Below are positions 8,786-13,959 of a stretch of 64,000 bases of DNA, piece after piece (within the stretch, counting starts at the first letter, position 1; every line of letters starts with the position of its first letter). Source of the DNA: Minisyncoccota bacterium (GTDB lineage Bacteria; Patescibacteriota; Minisyncoccia; Phycocordibacterales; JBAYGS01); contig JBAYGS010000002.1 in the NCBI GenBank assembly GCA_041666545.1, positions 6,065 through 70,064 on the forward strand, in the 5' to 3' direction. The notes below the pieces were generated by a model. It was given only the letters and a program-made list of their open reading frames with translations. It ran no database searches and was not told the origin of the DNA. The position numbers were made by a program, and so were the translations under genes.

Positions 8786-9358
8786 ATGACCTCCAAACTT
8801 TCAAACTTCCAAACTTCAAAACTAATAACACGCGCCTCGCGTCGTTCCGGTTTTACCATGCTCTTTGCTGTTTTGATTTCAGGTGTTTTGATGGCGATCG
8901 GAATTTCAATTTTCAATATCTCAATCAAAGAAGTTCGCTTGTCGTCGACGGCGCGCGATTCCAATCTGGCTTTTTACGCTTCTGACACTGGCCGAGAGTG
9001 CGCTATTTACTGGGATATGGCCGCCAAGAAGAAACTGAACGGCACTGACGCCTACGGTTTTGCCACTTCCACCGACAATAGCGTGGCGATTATTTCTGCG
9101 GACCAGTTTAGTTGCGGTGGCCAAATTAAAGATTTTCAGATTACTGTTCGGACCAGTGATAAGGCGACCACCAAATTTACAATTCAGCTTGGGGGTGATT
9201 TCGATCTGCCTTACTGTGCTGATGTGGCCGTCACTAAGGTCAAAAATTATGATACTGACACTTTTGATACCAATATCTCCGCCCAAGGCCACAACACCTG
9301 TGATTTGACCAATCCGGTAATAATCGAGCGAGGCACAGAAGCCAATTATTCCCAGTAG
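8786..9358 (+). CDS. Pilin-like protein lacking Glu5 (PilX-like)
   Basis: ...RRSG|FTMLFAVLISGVLMAIGISIF hydrophobic prepilin-like N-terminus with no Glu at +5. The leader contains an in-frame 8-mer DNA repeat (8793-8823). Confidence 0.5.
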   Translation: MTSKLSNFQTSKLITRASRRSGFTMLFAVLISGVLMAIGISIFNISIKEVRLSSTARDSNLAFYASDTGRECAIYWDMAAKKKLNGTDAYGFATSTDNSVAIISADQFSCGGQIKDFQITVRTSDKATTKFTIQLGGDFDLPYCADVAVTKVKNYDTDTFDTNISAQGHNTCDLTNPVIIERGTEANYSQ

Positions 9359-9403
9359 TCGACCGGGTGCCAACCAGATTTTTTTCGGTTATGATAGAAG
9401 CTA

Positions 9404-11425
9404 ATGGCAGACAAAATTCCTAAGGAGATAAAAGACCGCTTAAATAAGCTTAAAGAGGCGATTGAGAGACATCGCTACAATTATCATGTCCTGGACAAGG
9501 AAGAGATTTCCGAGGCCGCTTTGGATTCTTTAAAGCGTGAATTGGTTGAGCTTGAGGCCAAATATCCGGAACTTTTGACTCCCGATTCACCTTCGCAAAG
9601 AGTGGCCGGCAAGCCCTTGCCAGAATTTAAAAAGTTTACTCATATCGTACCGCAGTGGTCTTTGGGCGATGCTTTTACGATTGAGGATATTAAAGATTTT
9701 GACGCGCGAGTCAAAAGATTTTTGAAGGCCGAATATGGCAAAGAGATAATTCCTGGCTATACCTGTGAACTGAAGATCGATGGACTGAAAGTGGTTTTCC
9801 ATTACGAAAATGGCAGTTTGGTCCGCGGTGTGACTCGGGGCGACGGGGTAGTGGGCGAAGATGTGACGCAGAATGTGAGGACGATTGAGTCATTGCCTCT
9901 GAAACTTCACCGACCGATTGATTTGATAGTCGAAGGTGAGGTCTGGATGAGTAAAACTAATTTTAAGAAGCTAAACGAAGCCCGCAAGAAGGCCGGCGAA
10001 GAACTTTTCGCCAACCCACGCAATGTCACTGCCGGTTCAATCCGTCAGCTTGATCCCAAGATTGCCGCTTCTCGCAGACTTGATACTTTTGTTTACGATA
10101 TTGACCGAATCAGCGTAGATTTACCCAAAACTCAGATTGAAGAATTAAAATTGCTTCAAGACCTAGGATTCAAAGTTAATAAGAATTTTCGAAAGTGCGC
10201 GACCATCGAAGAAGTTGTGGCCTATTGGCAGGAATGGCAAAAGAAAGCGCCAAAAGAGAATCACTTGGTTGACGGCATCGTGGTCAAAGTCAGTGAAAGA
10301 GAATATCAAGAAAAGCTCGGTTATACCGGCAAGTCGCCCCGTTTCGCCATCGCCTTCAAATTTCCGGCTGAGCAGGTGACCACAATCGTCGAGGATATTG
10401 TCTTCCAAGTTGGCAGGACCGGTGTGGTGACTCCGGTCGCTCATTTGAAGCCGGTACTGGTCGCAGGCTCAACGGTCTCCCGGGCCACACTTCACAACGA
10501 AGATGAAATCAAACGCTTGGATATCAGGATTGGGGATACCGTTATTTTGCAAAAGGCTGGTGATGTAATTCCCGATATTGTGAAAGTTCTGACTGAATTG
10601 AGGACAGGTAAAGAAAAACCTTTCAAATGGCCGACTCAAATTTCGGCCTGTGGAGGAGATGGTAAGATTGAGCGAATCCCGGGGCAGGCCGCTTGGCGTT
10701 GTGTTAATAAAAATTCTTTTGCTCAAGAGAAGCGCAGGTTTTATCATTTTGTTTCTAAAAAAGCTTTTGATGTGGCAGATTTGGGTCCGAAGATTATCGA
10801 CTTGCTTCTGGAGAATAATTTGATTTCAACTTTTGATGACATTTTTACTGTGACGAGAGGCGATTTGTTGGCTTTGCCTCGTTTTGCTGAAAAGTCGGCT
10901 GATAATCTTATTTCTGCCATTGAAAAAGCGCGCTCGCCGGAGCTCGCGCGTTTCCTCGTCTCACTCTCAATCCCTCAGGTCGGTGAAGAAACAGCTTATG
11001 ACGTGGCTGAGCATTTTAAAACGATTGAAAAAATTCGTAATGCCAAGTTTGAAGATTTTGATAATCTCGACGGAGTTGGCCCGGTTGTCGCCAAGGCGCT
11101 TTTTGATTGGTTTCAGGATAAAGACAATTTGAAACTGCTTGACCGTCTGCTCAAACAAGTGAAAATTAAAAAAGTCGAGACCGTTTCTGCCACCGCCCGC
11201 CCTCTCGCCGGCAAAACTTTCGTGCTCACCGGTACCATGCCAAACCTTTCCCGTGATGAAGCTTCCTCACGAATCCGCCGGGCAGGTGGCGATGTCTCAA
11301 GCTCCGTCTCCAAAGCGACTGATTATGTCGTCGCGGGGGAGAATGCCGGTTCGAAACTCGATAAGGCCAACGAATTGGGTATAAAAATACTCTCTGAGTC
11401 GGAATTTTTGACTCTTTTAAAATAA
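9404..11425 (+). CDS. ligA: NAD-dependent DNA ligase LigA
   Basis: 673 aa. Adenylation motif KIDG (ELKIDGLKV), OB fold, Zn finger CxxC, HhH and C-terminal BRCT domains. Confidence 0.9.
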
Positions 11426-11476
11426 TTTCTCAAATTGTATAAGGAGATAGTTTGTAGGGCGCACCGAAAGCATAAG

Positions 11477-11998: not shown

Positions 11999-12088
11999 TT
12001 GATTGATTATTTAATGCTAATGCTATCATCTTCACTTACAAAGTAAATCGCTTCAAAAAAGGCTGATTTTAGGGTATTATTTAAGCCT

Positions 12089-12367
12089 ATGGATGAAGCG
12101 GGAATAGAGAAATTGGCCAAATTGGCCCGGTTGAAGCTTTCGACCGAAGAGAAGAAGAAATTCGCCAAGGAAATTGGCGCGATTTTGGAATATGTCGGCC
12201 AGATCAAGGAGGCTGGGGCAGAAACGGCCGAAAGGAAAATTCCTGATTTGAGAAATGTCATGAGGGCCGATGATGCATCTCACGAAAGCGGAATTCATAC
12301 CGAAGACCTGCTTAATTCAGCGCCGGAGAGAGAAGGGCAGTACATTAAAGTGAAAAAAATTCTCTAA
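12089..12367 (+). CDS. gatC: Glutamyl/aspartyl-tRNA amidotransferase subunit C
   Basis: 92 aa. GatC-like sequence (KLAKLARLKLSTEEKKKF...) immediately upstream of gatA. Confidence 0.8.
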   Translation: MDEAGIEKLAKLARLKLSTEEKKKFAKEIGAILEYVGQIKEAGAETAERKIPDLRNVMRADDASHESGIHTEDLLNSAPEREGQYIKVKKIL

Positions 12368-12507
12368 GCACCAAATGACAAATTACAAGTTCCAAATAAA
12401 TTCCAAGCATCAAATCAATAATAAGTTACCTTGTAATTTTGAATTTATAATTTGATTATTATTTGGAACTTGAATATTAGAATTTGAAATTTTAAATAAC
12501 TGTCGGT

Positions 12508-13959
12508 TTGAACATGATTAACCTAAAAGAACTAACAATCAAGAAGGCTAGAAAGCATTTAGACGATGGTGATTTCACTGCGGTTGATTTGGCCAAAGCT
12601 TATTTGAAAGAAATTGAAGCTAAAAACAAAGAGCTCAATGTTTACTTGGAAGTGTTTTCTGATGTTTTGGAGCAAGCCACAGAAGCTGACCGACAACTTC
12701 AAAACTTCAAAACTTCAAAACTTGAAACTCCGGCTCTGCTCGGTATTCCTCTTGCGATTAAGGATAATATTTTAATCAAAGGCAGAAAGGCCGGTTCAGC
12801 TTCAAAGATTCTTGAAGGTTATGTCGCAACCTATGACGCGACTGCAATTAAAAAATTGAAAGAGGCGGGAGCGATTTTCTTAGGCCGAGTAAACATGGAC
12901 GAGTTTGCCATGGGTGGTTCGACTGAAAATTCAGCTTACGGTCCGACCAGAAATCCTCACGATTCGGGAAGGGTGGCCGGTGGCTCTTCCGGTGGTTCAG
13001 CGGCGGCGGTAGCGGCCAATCTGGCCCTTGGCGCGCTTGGATCTGACACGGGTGGCTCGGTACGACAGCCAGCAAGCTTCTGCGGGGTAGTGGGTTTGAA
13101 ACCCACCTACGGCTCAGTTTCTCGATCAGGACTCATGGCCATGGCCTCATCGCTTGATGTCATCGGTCCGGTTGCCAAAACCGCCGAGGATGCGGAAATA
13201 ATTTTTAATGTTATCAAAGGAAAAGATCCGCTCGACAGCACTTCTTCTAATTTCTCAACTTCTCAACTTCCTAACTTCTCAACTTCTAAACTAACTATCG
13301 GGATTCCGGAAGAGATTTTAAAAATTGAGGGTTTGTCTCAGTCTGTGAGAGAAGTTCTTGATTCTGCCAAAGCTAAATTCGAGTCACTGGGTTTCAAAAT
13401 CAAACCGGTTTCTTTGCCAAAAATAAAATATTCGCTTTCGGCCTATTACATTATTGTGCCGGCCGAAGTTTCTTCCAACATGGCGCGTTTTGACGGCGTG
13501 AAATACGGAGCCAAAGTCCCGGGCGCTGATCTTCTGGAGGACTATCTTAAAACTCGGGGAGAGCTTTTGGGTCCGGAAGTTCGAAGGCGAATTATTATCG
13601 GCACCTATGTGCTTTCTTCCGGCTATTATGACGCTTATTATCACAAAGCCAATGTGGTTCGTGGTTTTATCGCGGATGATTTTGCCAACGCCTTTAAGGA
13701 TGTCGATTTGATTTTGATGCCAACGGCCCCATCACCAGCCTTCAAAATCGGGGAGAAGGCTGCCAATCCTCTAGAGCTTTATCTGGAGGATGTCTTCACG
13801 GTTCCAGCCAATCTGGTTGGTCTACCGGCGATTTCCATTCCGGCCGGTTTCGCGGAGGCAGATGGCAAAAAGTTGCCGGTGGGGATTCAGCTCATTGCTC
13901 CAAAGGGCGGTGAGGGAGTAATATTTAAAGCAAGTAGGGAGTTCTTGAGTGAAAAATAA
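12508..13959 (+). CDS. gatA: Glutamyl/aspartyl-tRNA amidotransferase subunit A (amidase signature family)
   Basis: 483 aa. GIPLAIKDNI, amidase signature GGSSGGSAAAVA. Contains two in-frame 8-mer DNA repeat arrays (12696-12727, 13244-13292). Confidence 0.9.
   Translation: MNMINLKELTIKKARKHLDDGDFTAVDLAKAYLKEIEAKNKELNVYLEVFSDVLEQATEADRQLQNFKTSKLETPALLGIPLAIKDNILIKGRKAGSASKILEGYVATYDATAIKKLKEAGAIFLGRVNMDEFAMGGSTENSAYGPTRNPHDSGRVAGGSSGGSAAAVAANLALGALGSDTGGSVRQPASFCGVVGLKPTYGSVSRSGLMAMASSLDVIGPVAKTAEDAEIIFNVIKGKDPLDSTSSNFSTSQLPNFSTSKLTIGIPEEILKIEGLSQSVREVLDSAKAKFESLGFKIKPVSLPKIKYSLSAYYIIVPAEVSSNMARFDGVKYGAKVPGADLLEDYLKTRGELLGPEVRRRIIIGTYVLSSGYYDAYYHKANVVRGFIADDFANAFKDVDLILMPTAPSPAFKIGEKAANPLELYLEDVFTVPANLVGLPAISIPAGFAEADGKKLPVGIQLIAPKGGEGVIFKASREFLSEK

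What the first reader, a model, noticed from the sequence alone, without database searches (positions are those of the whole stretch)
8793..13292. In-frame octanucleotide tandem repeats (AACTTCAA family) inserted into coding sequences of unrelated genes, including gatA
An 8-nt unit (CCAAACTT / ACTTCAAA / TTCTCAAC, all shifts or variants of one another) is tandemly repeated at three sites. Four copies lie in the leader of the PilX-like pilin (8793-8823), four copies in gatA codons about 63-73 (12696-12727), and 5-6 copies in gatA codons about 245-262 (13244-13292). Three units equal 24 nt, so the arrays stay in frame. They encode the peptides (S/Q)NF(Q/K/S)TSKL, which are read-through products of the DNA repeat rather than conserved protein motifs. 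Microsatellite-like insertions inside an essential amidotransferase are unusual. They suggest replication slippage, or a repeat-mediated insertion mechanism tolerated in surface loops.
Basis: seen in the sequence. Interest (0 to 1): 0.55.

Follow-up and report, generated by a model that had tools for sequence, protein, structure and literature searches.

The report
Short tandem DNA arrays inside genes
Three runs of an 8-base DNA unit are read through as protein in a pilin leader and in two variable segments of the essential enzyme GatA; they belong to a known type of scattered 7-8-base bacterial tandem repeat that survives only where the protein tolerates it, which is a neat example rather than a new kind of system.

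Summary
TRF finds 8-nt arrays at 8792-8823, 12695-12727 and 13244-13292, all in frame, against about 0.1 expected by chance.

They are not isolated. The window, from a Candidatus Paceibacterota bacterium, holds at least 12 arrays of 7-8-nt units, each about 30 nt long. Four more lie in pilin leaders and five in spacers just upstream of start codons.

In relatives the same two GatA sites and the same pilin leader carry arrays with different units, for example GGTCAAT in an 88%-identical GatA. The peptides are therefore by-products of DNA repeats.

The arrays are not net insertions. GatA site-2 linkers with arrays are 20-23 aa long, against a median of 25 without.

Across 769 kb of relatives, heptamer arrays show a length mode at 30-32 nt (about 4.4 units). 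Units are shared between loci of one genome far more than between genomes.

This matches the known bacterial heptameric repeat class: cyanobacterial STRRs and the Xanthomonas/Nostoc repeats that prefer four units.

The most likely mechanism is slippage or template switching, filtered by reading frame, stop codons and protein tolerance. Phase variation is unlikely, since four assemblies have identical arrays.

Side observation: all 13 four-helix-bundle (Avd-like) genes examined, across phyla, have such arrays beside them. In ten the two flanking arrays are clearly mutual reverse complements.

The parts
8792..8823 (+). 8-nt array (TCCAAACT x4.0) translated as part of the leader peptide of the PilX-like pilin
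   Evidence: TRF. ORF translation MTSKLSNFQTSKLITRASRRSG|FTMLF. No G on the sense strand. RNA around it is predicted unpaired.
8786..9358 (+). PilX-like minor pilin gene. Its leader is a repeat-acceptor site: orthologues carry other arrays there.
   Evidence: Homologues P0129 and P0130 carry PF14341. The 80%-identical orthologue has AAACTAY x4.6 in the same leader.
12514..13959 (+). gatA (Asp/Glu-tRNA amidotransferase subunit A), intact, ATG start at 12514
   Evidence: Pfam Amidase E 1e-140. PDB 3h0l_A E 1.5e-132. AF2 model mean pLDDT 82.7.
12695..12727 (+). 8-nt array, gatA site 1 (AACTTCAA x4.1, 96% matches); encodes QLQNFKTSKLE at the end of a helix plus the following coil
   Evidence: TRF. 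The same unit family occurs at the same site in L001, L003 and L206-L209. AF2 model.
13244..13292 (+). 8-nt array, gatA site 2 (CTTCTCAA x6.2, or a 24-nt block x1.9); encodes SNFSTSQLPNFSTSKL in a coil linker
   Evidence: TRF. Eight of 83 gatA genes have an array here, each with a different consensus unit. pLDDT 59-72.
4616..4644 (+). 7-nt array ACCCACT x4.1 in the leader of pilin 4601-5131 (MKNKTTHYPLPTTHYSG|FTLIE)
6973..7003 (+). 7-nt array ACTACTC x4.4 in the leader of pilin 6958-7596
7655..7685 (+). 7-nt array ACTACTC x4.4 in the leader of pilin 7634-8179
8201..8231 (+). 7-nt array ACTACTC x4.4 in the leader of pilin 8192-8776
   Evidence: The orthologue in L199 has AAACTAT-type units instead.
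28284..28315 (+). 7-nt array ACTACTC x4.6 that fills the ftsE-ftsX spacer and ends 7 nt before the ftsX ATG. It shows that the pilin-leader unit also occurs in non-coding DNA.
   Evidence: The orthologous spacer has ACTATAA x4.3 in L210 and no array in L211.
7595..7622 (+). 7-nt array AGGTATA x4.0 upstream of pilin 7634
27558..27591 (+). 7-nt array (ATACCAT/ATACTAT x4.9) ending 6 nt before the likely ftsE start at 27597
29251..29284 (+). 7-nt array GGTATAT x4.9 upstream of the four-helix-bundle gene
29678..29708 (+). 6/7-nt array ATACTT(n) x5 downstream of the four-helix-bundle gene and 4 nt before the pyrG ATG; approximately the reverse complement of the 29251 array

Best explanation
The three octamer runs are DNA-level short tandem arrays of the bacterial 'heptameric repeat' / STRR type: units of 7-8 nt, usually about four copies, about 30 nt long, scattered at many loci. 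They are not protein motifs.

In this Parcubacteria lineage such arrays are made and renewed by strand slippage or template switching during DNA synthesis (inferred). They occur as unit families that are shared between unrelated loci of one genome and differ between related genomes (shown).

Inside genes they persist only where three filters are passed:
1. The sense orientation has no stop codon in any frame. The reverse orientation of AACTTCAA, CTTCTCAA, ACTACTC and ACCCACT does contain stops.
2. Length changes come in in-frame steps of three units (21 or 24 nt) or 8+7 = 15 nt.
3. The encoded segment is dispensable. Here that means the pilin leader peptides, which the prepilin peptidase encoded in the window would normally remove (inferred from family knowledge), and two variable segments of GatA.

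The NF(K/Q/S)TSKL peptides are by-products. The arrays replace linker sequence and do not lengthen it. For GatA function they are most likely neutral.
For: The arrays are real and non-random.

They are DNA-level elements:
- The leader unit ACTACTC also fills the non-coding ftsE-ftsX spacer.
- At GatA site 2, eight of 83 genes carry arrays, each with a different consensus unit: CTTCTCAA, ACTTCCAA, GGTCAAT, AAACATG, CTAAACG, GAATTAA, AAAGATA and CAAGCTC. CAAAACA, CAAACTTT, AACTTCTC and ACTACAA occur in syntenic relatives.
- An 88%-identical GatA has GGTCAAT x4.9 where the window has CTTCTCAA x6.2.
- The PilX-like leader of an 80%-identical orthologue has AAACTAY x4.6.

The sites are permissive:
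- Eleven of 12 arrays inside 83 gatA genes fall at the two sites.
- A protein-level scan of 120 orthologues found peptides compatible with periodic DNA only at those sites.
- In 141 pilin relatives, 5 leaders hold such a segment of at least 27 nt, against 0 in 25,186 aa of mature protein.
- Site 2 is coil with pLDDT 59-72.

They are not net insertions.

In-frame steps are seen directly: a 24-nt super-repeat at site 2 and a 15-nt period in L001.

Stop-codon asymmetry was computed.

The arrays fit the known class:
- Period-7 arrays in 769 kb have a second length mode at 30-32 nt, about 4.4 units.
- Inverted pairs occur.
- Arrays vary between close relatives.
- These are the features reported for the Xanthomonas/Nostoc heptamers (PMC4692102).

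Unit families are genome-specific. Twenty-six per cent of within-locus array pairs share a unit, against 5.4% of between-locus pairs (p<0.0005). In the orthologous ftsE-ftsX arrays, three of four units changed in parallel while one odd unit, ACTACTA, stayed the same.
Against: - No step of the generating mechanism is observed. Slippage is an inference from pattern and from the literature.
- Single-unit slippage cannot operate in an essential ORF, so renewal there needs three-unit steps or patch-like conversion. Perfect arrays at site 2 in L207 and L209 show recent renewal whose route is unknown.
- The narrow length mode of about 4.4 units in non-coding DNA, and the sharing of units between unlinked loci, are not predicted by simple local slippage.
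- Ten of 12 window arrays lie within -49 to +51 nt of a start codon, and ten of 12 have 0-1 G on the sense strand. This hints at selection on RNA and not pure neutrality.
- Part of the within-genome unit sharing may come from paralogous pilin genes.
Confidence: 0.68

Rival explanations
1. The arrays are functional cis-elements of mRNA around translation starts. Single G-free arrays would keep the initiation region unstructured, and inverted pairs would form hairpins that mask the start codon. On this reading the two gatA arrays are spill-over of the same repeat family into tolerant coding sequence.
For: - Ten of 12 window arrays lie between -49 and +51 of a start codon, and ten of 12 have 0-1 G on the sense strand although G makes up 24.8% of the window.
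- The array regions fold no better than shuffles: z +0.7 and +1.3, and the PilX array is unpaired.
- In syntenic relatives the pilin 5' regions carry inverted array pairs that form very stable hairpins over the start codon (z -3.5 to -10.1). An in-frame Met sits 9 codons before the G|F cleavage site.
- AACTTCMA arrays in other phyla mostly sit just upstream of start codons, including that of a type IV pilin gene.
- PMC4692102 reports heptamer repeats within 50 bp of ORF ends, mostly transcribed.
Against: - The gatA arrays are 181 and 730 nt inside the gene.
- The genome is compact, so any spacer array is necessarily near a start codon.
- Arrays in relatives often contain G (GGTCAAT, TTGGAAC).
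- There are no expression data.
- This reading does not explain how the arrays arise.
Confidence: 0.2
2. The arrays are half-sites or footprints of a small mobile or actively copied element whose full form is [array]-cargo-[reverse-complement array]. The cargo would be a four-helix-bundle (Avd-like, PF05635) gene or a short palindrome. Unit families would then spread from a genome-specific master copy.
For: - All 13 four-helix-bundle genes examined, from at least five phyla, have 6-8-nt arrays beside them. In ten the two flanking arrays are clearly mutual reverse complements; the window's pair is only roughly complementary (about 70%), L048 has an upstream array only, and Pseudanabaena's flanking arrays are direct.
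- The cassette with both arrays is present between ftsX and pyrG in the window and in a 77% relative. It is absent, with no array left, in an 88% relative.
- The same unit family as the cassette flanks occurs alone at 7595 and 27558.
- Unit families are shared within genomes and swapped between genomes.
- Heptamers precede the S23p ORF in the Coxiella IVS, with variable copy number (PMC4990558).
- PF05635 resembles the DGR accessory protein Avd (PMC10053308).
Against: - No transposase, target-site duplication or reverse transcriptase is seen in the window.
- The window's cassette has GTATA-type arrays, not AACTTCAA or ACTACTC.
- A roughly 450-nt cassette could never have sat inside gatA.
- Arrays are far more numerous than cassettes.
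- Loss in one lineage is also explained by ordinary deletion.
Confidence: 0.1
3. The arrays are contingency loci. Slipped-strand changes of one unit (7 or 8 nt, not a multiple of 3) would switch pilin genes, and even gatA, on and off.
For: - Unit lengths are not multiples of 3.
- Five arrays sit in the 5' coding region of surface-filament genes, the arrangement known for Neisseria opa (my own knowledge) and for Haemophilus 7-bp repeats (PMC8262952).
- Copy number of the Coxiella IVS heptamers varies among strains (PMC4990558).
Against: - Four independent assemblies of this organism have identical arrays, with no indel in 15.7 kb.
- All seven coding arrays are in frame.
- The tracts are short, about 4 units.
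- gatA is essential in an organism that relies on GatCAB.
- The same arrays occur in spacers and linkers where switching has no meaning.
- Consensus assemblies cannot exclude rare variants.
Confidence: 0.05
4. The periodicity is a coincidence of codon choice in a conserved peptide, or the peptide NFxTSKL is itself a selected protein motif.
For: Site 1 of GatA encodes a similar peptide (K[LI][KQ]N[LFV][PK]TSKL[SP]NL) in a whole clade down to 63% identity. It lies partly in a confidently modelled helix end.
Against: - DNA periodicity at lag 8 is 0.49-0.73 at site 1 in all seven lineages, against a background of 0.26. Saturated synonymous sites would not show this.
- The same unit occurs in three unrelated contexts.
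- Other units occupy the same sites in relatives.
- Most GatA orthologues lack the peptide.
Confidence: 0.03

Closest known systems
Heptameric simple-sequence repeats of bacteria: cyanobacterial STRR sequences (Calothrix/Nostoc) and the GGGAATC / GGGGAYT repeats of Xanthomonas and Nostoc (PMC4692102; Mazel 1990 and Mrazek 2007 as cited there)
   Same: - Units of 7 nt (8 nt here in the minority), head to tail.
- Many dispersed loci share a unit within a genome.
- There is a clear preference for about four units (against 'clear preference for four units' in PMC4692102).
- Location close to ORF ends.
- Frequent inverted pairs.
- Length and sequence differences between close relatives.
- Function unknown, with polymerase slippage proposed.
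   Different: - The host is a Parcubacteria (CPR) bacterium.
- Units here are G-free or G-poor, so the G-quadruplex explanation offered for the four-unit preference cannot apply.
[quoted passage not shown]
- Three arrays have an 8-nt unit.
STRR heptamers inside the RNase P RNA gene of heterocystous cyanobacteria (Vioque 1997, known to me only from its title as cited in PMC2858038)
   Same: A dispersed heptamer array sits inside an essential gene.
   Different: That host gene encodes an RNA, so there is no reading-frame or stop-codon filter. Here the arrays are translated. The paper itself could not be read.
Phase-variable contingency loci (Neisseria opa CTCTT repeats in the signal-peptide region, from my own knowledge; Haemophilus hmw 7-bp repeats, PMC8262952)
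   Same: Short tandem repeats with a unit that is not a multiple of 3, in the 5' region of surface-structure genes.
   Different: The tracts here are short (about 4 units), identical in four assemblies, always in frame, and also present in an essential housekeeping gene and in spacers.
23S rRNA intervening sequences with an S23p ORF (Coxiella, PMC4990558)
   Same: A four-helix-bundle ORF preceded by tandem heptamers and enclosed by a stem. This matches the cassette at 29251-29708.
   Different: The cassette here lies between protein genes (ftsX and pyrG), not in rRNA. It concerns the neighbouring arrays, not the three arrays of the finding.

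Membership tests
Bacterial heptameric / STRR-type dispersed tandem arrays | Head-to-tail repeats of a 6-9-nt unit (typically 7) | tested here: met
   TRF: the three arrays of the finding have period 8. Nine further window arrays have period 7 (one has period 6/7).
Bacterial heptameric / STRR-type dispersed tandem arrays | The same unit recurs at several unlinked loci of one genome | tested here: met
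   AACTTCNA occurs at 3 loci, ACTACTC/ACCCACT at 5 loci and GTATA-type at 4 loci. Unit sharing is 26% within loci against 5.4% between loci, p<0.0005.
Bacterial heptameric / STRR-type dispersed tandem arrays | Preference for about four units | tested here: met
   Period-7 arrays in 769 kb have a mode of 33 arrays at 30-32 nt; the Markov control has almost none of 21 nt or more. Two of the three octamer arrays have 4.0-4.1 units and the third has 6.2.
Bacterial heptameric / STRR-type dispersed tandem arrays | Mainly intergenic, close to ORF ends, under-represented in coding sequence | tested here: inconclusive
   Five of 12 window arrays are in spacers, 4-16 nt before a start codon. Seven are translated, but only in leader peptides and two linkers.
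Bacterial heptameric / STRR-type dispersed tandem arrays | Occurrence as inverted pairs able to form stem-loops | tested here: met
   Pairs are seen in relatives (L165, L190, L158, L160, L206, L209), with hairpin z scores of -3.5 to -10. In the window, arrays flank the four-helix-bundle gene, and the gatC-gatA spacer forms a degenerate pair.
Bacterial heptameric / STRR-type dispersed tandem arrays | Length and sequence differ between close relatives at the same locus | tested here: met
   GatA site 2, the PilX-like leader and the ftsE-ftsX spacer.
Phase-variable contingency locus | Copy number varies within or between populations of one strain and shifts the frame | tested here: not met
   Three further assemblies match the window at 99.98-100% identity with no gap across all arrays. 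This is consensus level only; reads were not available.
Phase-variable contingency locus | The host gene is dispensable or variable (surface, restriction-modification, etc.) | tested here: inconclusive
   Met for the pilins, not met for gatA.
DNA uptake sequences (DUS/USS) | Strong genome-wide over-representation of single copies of the motif | tested here: not met
   Outside the arrays the units occur at chance level: AACTTCAA has 1 extra copy on the + strand and 4 on the - strand in 64 kb.
GatA (amidase-signature subunit of GatCAB) | Full-length amidase-signature domain; gatC upstream | tested here: met
   Pfam PF01425 residues 28-470, E 1e-140, with GatC at 12089-12367. The best PDB matches are all GatA. 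The GGSSGGS and KDN motifs are present in the alignment.
Type IV pilin-like protein with class III leader | G|F(T/S)(L/M)(I/L/V/F)(E/x) cleavage motif followed by a hydrophobic helix; prepilin peptidase nearby | tested here: met
   PF07963 matches four neighbouring pilins. PilD (PF06750+PF01478) is at 6148-6954. The PilX-like ORF has SG|FTMLFAVL, with PF14341 on its homologues.

The most novel reading that the evidence does not exclude
The arrays are not passive slippage products. They would be half-sites of a widespread, undescribed micro-element of the form array - cargo - reverse-complement array, whose cargo is often an Avd-like four-helix-bundle gene. Arrays would be copied from a genome-specific master, in quanta of about four units, into translation-start regions and unconstrained linkers. 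That would link cyanobacterial STRRs, rRNA intervening sequences and these CPR arrays into one system with an active writing mechanism or a trans-acting binding partner.
Probability: 0.1. Interest if true: 0.8.

Novelty: new member of a known kind. Interest (0 to 1): 0.45.

Why it matters
The three arrays themselves are an ordinary member of a repeat class known since 1990. The case is still informative in four ways.

1. These repeats can live inside an essential enzyme and in pilin leader peptides. They mark which protein segments are free of constraint, and they create spurious 'low-complexity motifs' in CPR proteomes.

2. The preference for four units holds for G-free units. The G-quadruplex explanation proposed for Xanthomonas and Nostoc therefore cannot be general.

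3. Unit families are shared between unlinked loci of one genome and replaced in step between sister genomes. Simple local slippage does not predict this.

4. Such arrays lie beside four-helix-bundle (Avd-like) genes from Cyanobacteria to CPR. This gives a concrete handle on the unexplained origin of heptameric repeats.

For annotation, gene callers and CRISPR or repeat finders should expect these arrays at gene starts in Parcubacteria.

Tried and rejected
- DNA-uptake-sequence idea: rejected. Single copies of the units are not over-represented.
- Net-insertion idea: rejected by alignment to a solved GatA and by loop lengths in 83 genes.
- Assembly artefact: rejected. Three other assemblies are identical.
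- Known RNA family: an Rfam scan of the whole window finds only four tRNAs.
- Unit specific to Parcubacteria: rejected. Three perfect AACTTCMA units occur in 111 stretches from many phyla. A single scan cannot say whether this unit is commoner than others.
- Hairpin between the arrays at 7595 and 7655 in the window: predicted, but no more stable than shuffles (z +1.3).
- Strict protein-level scan for periodic-DNA peptides: it misses imperfect arrays, including the query's own, so its frequencies are lower bounds.
- Literature searches for such repeats in Parcubacteria/CPR found nothing. The Vioque 1997 paper is not held.
- Close relatives above 66% GatA identity were not returned by the metagenome scan and had to be fetched by exact-protein look-ups.

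Full report
**1. Observation.**
Reading 8600-13600 and running Tandem Repeats Finder on the whole window confirms the three arrays.
- 8792-8823: period 8, 4.0 copies, 87% matches.
- 12695-12727: period 8, 4.1 copies, 96% matches.
- 13244-13292: period 8, 6.2 copies, 80% matches. It scores better as a 24-nt unit x1.9 at 90% matches.

All three lie in open frames. The first is in a 190-aa ORF that begins MTSKLSNFQTSKLITRASRRSG|FTMLFAVL. More distant homologues of this ORF carry PF14341 PilX_N. The other two are in gatA, which matches Pfam Amidase at E 1e-140 and has gatC just upstream. Its best matches among solved structures are all GatA.

Arrays of this strength are essentially absent from Markov shuffles. 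Three other public assemblies of the same organism are identical over the region, at 99.98-100% identity with no gaps. The organism is a Candidatus Paceibacterota (Parcubacteria) bacterium.

**2. The arrays are part of a larger set.**
The same TRF run shows nine more arrays of the same format, all between 4.6 and 29.7 kb.
- ACCCACT or ACTACTC x4.1-4.4 lies in the leader-coding region of four further type IV pilin genes (4616, 6973, 7655, 8201). These encode leaders such as MLKTTHYSLLTTHSTG|FTLIE.
- ACTACTC x4.6 fills the non-coding ftsE-ftsX spacer (28284-28315).
- GTATA-type arrays lie at 7595, 27558, 29251 and 29678.

Ten of the 12 arrays lie between -49 and +51 nt of a start codon. Ten of 12 have 0-1 G on the sense strand.

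For AACTTCAA, CTTCTCAA, ACTACTC and ACCCACT the reverse orientation would create stop codons, while the sense orientation is open in all three frames. An 8-nt or 7-nt unit repeated three times passes through all three frames. The peptide is therefore fixed by the unit, which explains why NF(K/Q/S)TSKL recurs.

**3. What relatives show.**
Aligned to Aquifex GatA (3h0l), site 1 is only 3 aa longer and site 2 is 3 aa shorter.

Among 120 orthologues, many at 62-67% identity carry similar peptides at the same two sites and many carry none. A scan for peptides that can only come from perfectly 7- or 8-periodic DNA hit 11 orthologues, always at these two sites.

DNA of close relatives was then examined.
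- The 88%-identical gene (L003) keeps AACTTCAA at site 1 but has GGTCAAT x4.9 at site 2.
- The 80%-identical gene (L001) has a longer site-1 array (6.5 units, with a 15-nt sub-period) and ACTTCCAA x5.4 at site 2.

In 83 gatA genes with DNA (plus the above), 12 arrays lie inside the gene: 8 at site 2, each with a different consensus unit, 3 at site 1 and 1 elsewhere. Site-2 linkers with arrays are 20-23 aa, against a median of 25 without.

Four syntenic relatives at 63-67% identity keep 8-nt periodicity at site 1 (0.49-0.73 against a background of 0.26). At site 2 they carry CAAAACA, CAAACTTT (perfect), AACTTCTC or ACTACAA (perfect).

An AlphaFold model puts site 2 in a coil with pLDDT 59-72. 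Site 1 lies at the end of helix 51-68 and the following coil.

The PilX-like leader behaves the same way. The 80% orthologue has AAACTAY x4.6, and a 67% orthologue has a long degenerate heptamer-derived leader. In other Parcubacteria, arrays of various units lie in pilin leaders. Among 141 pilin-family representatives, 5 leaders hold at least 27 nt of perfectly periodic-compatible sequence, against 0 in 25,186 aa of mature protein.

The arrays are therefore DNA-level elements that occupy, and keep being replaced in, segments where the protein is unconstrained. They are not insertions that lengthen the protein.

**4. The class they belong to.**
The 769 kb comprise the window and GatA-containing loci from relatives. 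In that DNA, period-7 arrays have a background that decays by about 21 nt and a second mode at 30-32 nt. That bin holds 33 arrays of about 4.4 units, many of them perfect. Shuffled controls have almost none. Period-8 arrays are rarer.

Some arrays form inverted pairs. In syntenic relatives the pilin 5' regions carry such pairs plus a GC palindrome. These give hairpins with z scores of -3.5 to -10 over the start codon. The window's single arrays are unstructured.

The literature describes exactly this class. Heptameric repeats are over-represented among bacterial SSRs. The STRRs of Calothrix, and the GGGAATC / GGGGAYT repeats of Xanthomonas and Nostoc, have 2-26 units 'with a clear preference for four'. 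They lie within 50 bp of ORF ends, form 70-75 inverted pairs and vary between close relatives. Polymerase slippage is the proposed origin (PMC4692102).

The G-quadruplex rationale given there for four units cannot hold for the G-free units seen here.

**5. Dynamics.**
Three further observations go beyond local slippage.
- The ftsE-ftsX array is ACTACTC-ACTACCC-ACTACTA-ACTACTC in the window and ACTATAA-ACTATAA-ACTACTA-ACTATAA in a 77% relative. One odd unit is conserved and the other three changed in parallel. An 88% relative has no array there.
- Pilin leaders of a third lineage carry ACTAYAA where the window has ACTACTC or AACTTCMA.
- Across 66 heptamer arrays in 28 loci, 26% of within-locus pairs share a unit within one mismatch, against 5.4% of between-locus pairs (p<0.0005; still 23% for pairs more than 400 nt apart).

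Inside ORFs the visible steps are in frame: a 24-nt block at site 2 and a 15-nt block in L001.

**6. Explanation and rivals.**
The best-supported reading (confidence 0.68) is this. These are STRR-type arrays generated and renewed by slippage or template switching. They are filtered in ORFs by frame, stop codons and protein tolerance. Their peptides are by-products, and the arrays are neutral for GatA.

The rivals are:
- A cis-acting role at translation starts (0.2, not exclusive). It is supported by position, G-depletion and the hairpins in relatives, but it cannot explain the gatA sites.
- Derivation from a cassette-like element (0.1).
- Phase variation (0.05). It is disfavoured by identical arrays in four assemblies, short tracts and an essential host gene.
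- A selected peptide or codon coincidence (0.03). It is refuted.

**7. Side observation.**
The four-helix-bundle gene at 29300-29668 is bracketed by GGTATAT x4.9 and ATACTTn x5, a pair that is only roughly complementary (about 70% by eye). All 13 such genes examined have short-period arrays beside them. They come from CPR loci, Flavobacteriaceae, an uncultured Opitutales (Verrucomicrobiota) bacterium, Ca. Neomarinimicrobiota, Nostoc, Calothrix, Geminocystis, Pseudanabaena, Riemerella, Gemmatirosa and L210. In ten of them the two flanking arrays are clearly mutual reverse complements. The exceptions are the window's roughly complementary pair, L048 (upstream array only) and Pseudanabaena (direct arrays).

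The cassette with both arrays is absent between ftsX and pyrG in an 88% relative. Heptamers before the S23p ORF of the Coxiella IVS are on record (PMC4990558), and PF05635 resembles Avd of diversity-generating retroelements (PMC10053308). I found no paper stating the general association. It is a lead, not part of the verdict on the three arrays.

**8. Verdict.**
The arrays are a new member, in CPR bacteria and in translated positions, of a known kind of bacterial repeat. Interest is moderate.

Noticed in passing
window 29251-29708; also L005, L048, L054, L092, L191, L200-L205, L210: All 13 four-helix-bundle (PF05635, '23S rRNA IVS protein', Avd-like) genes examined have 6-8-nt tandem arrays beside them. 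In ten the two flanking arrays are clearly mutual reverse complements, so the mRNA could form a 5'-3' stem around the ORF. This holds in CPR, Bacteroidota, Cyanobacteria and Gemmatimonadota. I found no paper stating this generally.
   Followed up: partly
window 29249-29711 versus L211 1899-1924 and L212 4010-4233: The array-4HB-array cassette between ftsX and pyrG is present in the window and in a 77% relative (L210). It is missing, together with both arrays, in an 88% relative, where ftsX and pyrG are 26 nt apart, and in a 71% relative. It is therefore an indel between close lineages.
   Followed up: partly
window 12372-12486 (gatC-gatA spacer): An imperfect hairpin whose arms are degenerate 7-nt periodic sequence (28-nt arms, 79% complementary; RNA fold z -3.1). 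Relatives also carry arrays in this spacer (L206 8089-8122, L207 1690-1755, L209 9902-9921).
   Followed up: partly
L209 4945-5065, 5628-5740, 6250-6385; L206 3760-3870: Pilin genes of syntenic relatives have inverted heptamer-array pairs plus a GC palindrome. These form very stable hairpins (down to -61.9 kcal/mol, z -10) over the annotated start. An in-frame Met 9 codons before the G|F site suggests the true start lies in the 3' arm.
   Followed up: partly
window 1-64000: All 12 arrays lie between 4.6 and 29.7 kb. The remaining 34 kb (30-64 kb) has none with 3 or more copies of a 6-8-nt unit. I did not examine what distinguishes the two halves.
   Followed up: no
window 11477-11998 (- strand): A 173-aa ORF with no Pfam match sits on the opposite strand between ligA and gatC. 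In L198, L206 and L209 ligA is followed directly by gatC. L001 has two other reverse-strand ORFs there. This is a variable insertion point.
   Followed up: no
L195 16954-19296 versus window 15739 onward: An otherwise identical assembly (ENA k141_361604) departs from the window after position 15738 and carries a second amidase-family gene (474 aa) on the other strand. This is either a structural variant or a chimeric contig.
   Followed up: no
L203 (Pseudanabaena plasmid, 370-1069): A four-helix-bundle gene lies between cas6 and cas4 and is flanked by 14-16-copy heptamer arrays. This may be relevant to the published listing of this family among CRISPR-linked proteins (PMC10910872), but I did not test it.
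   Followed up: no
Genome-contig loci L004-L114: Three perfect AACTTCMA units occur in 111 stretches from many phyla. They mostly sit just upstream of start codons (once before a type IV pilin gene, L092), and several genomes have multiple dispersed copies. Alteromonadales carry long arrays of up to about 130 nt.
   Followed up: partly
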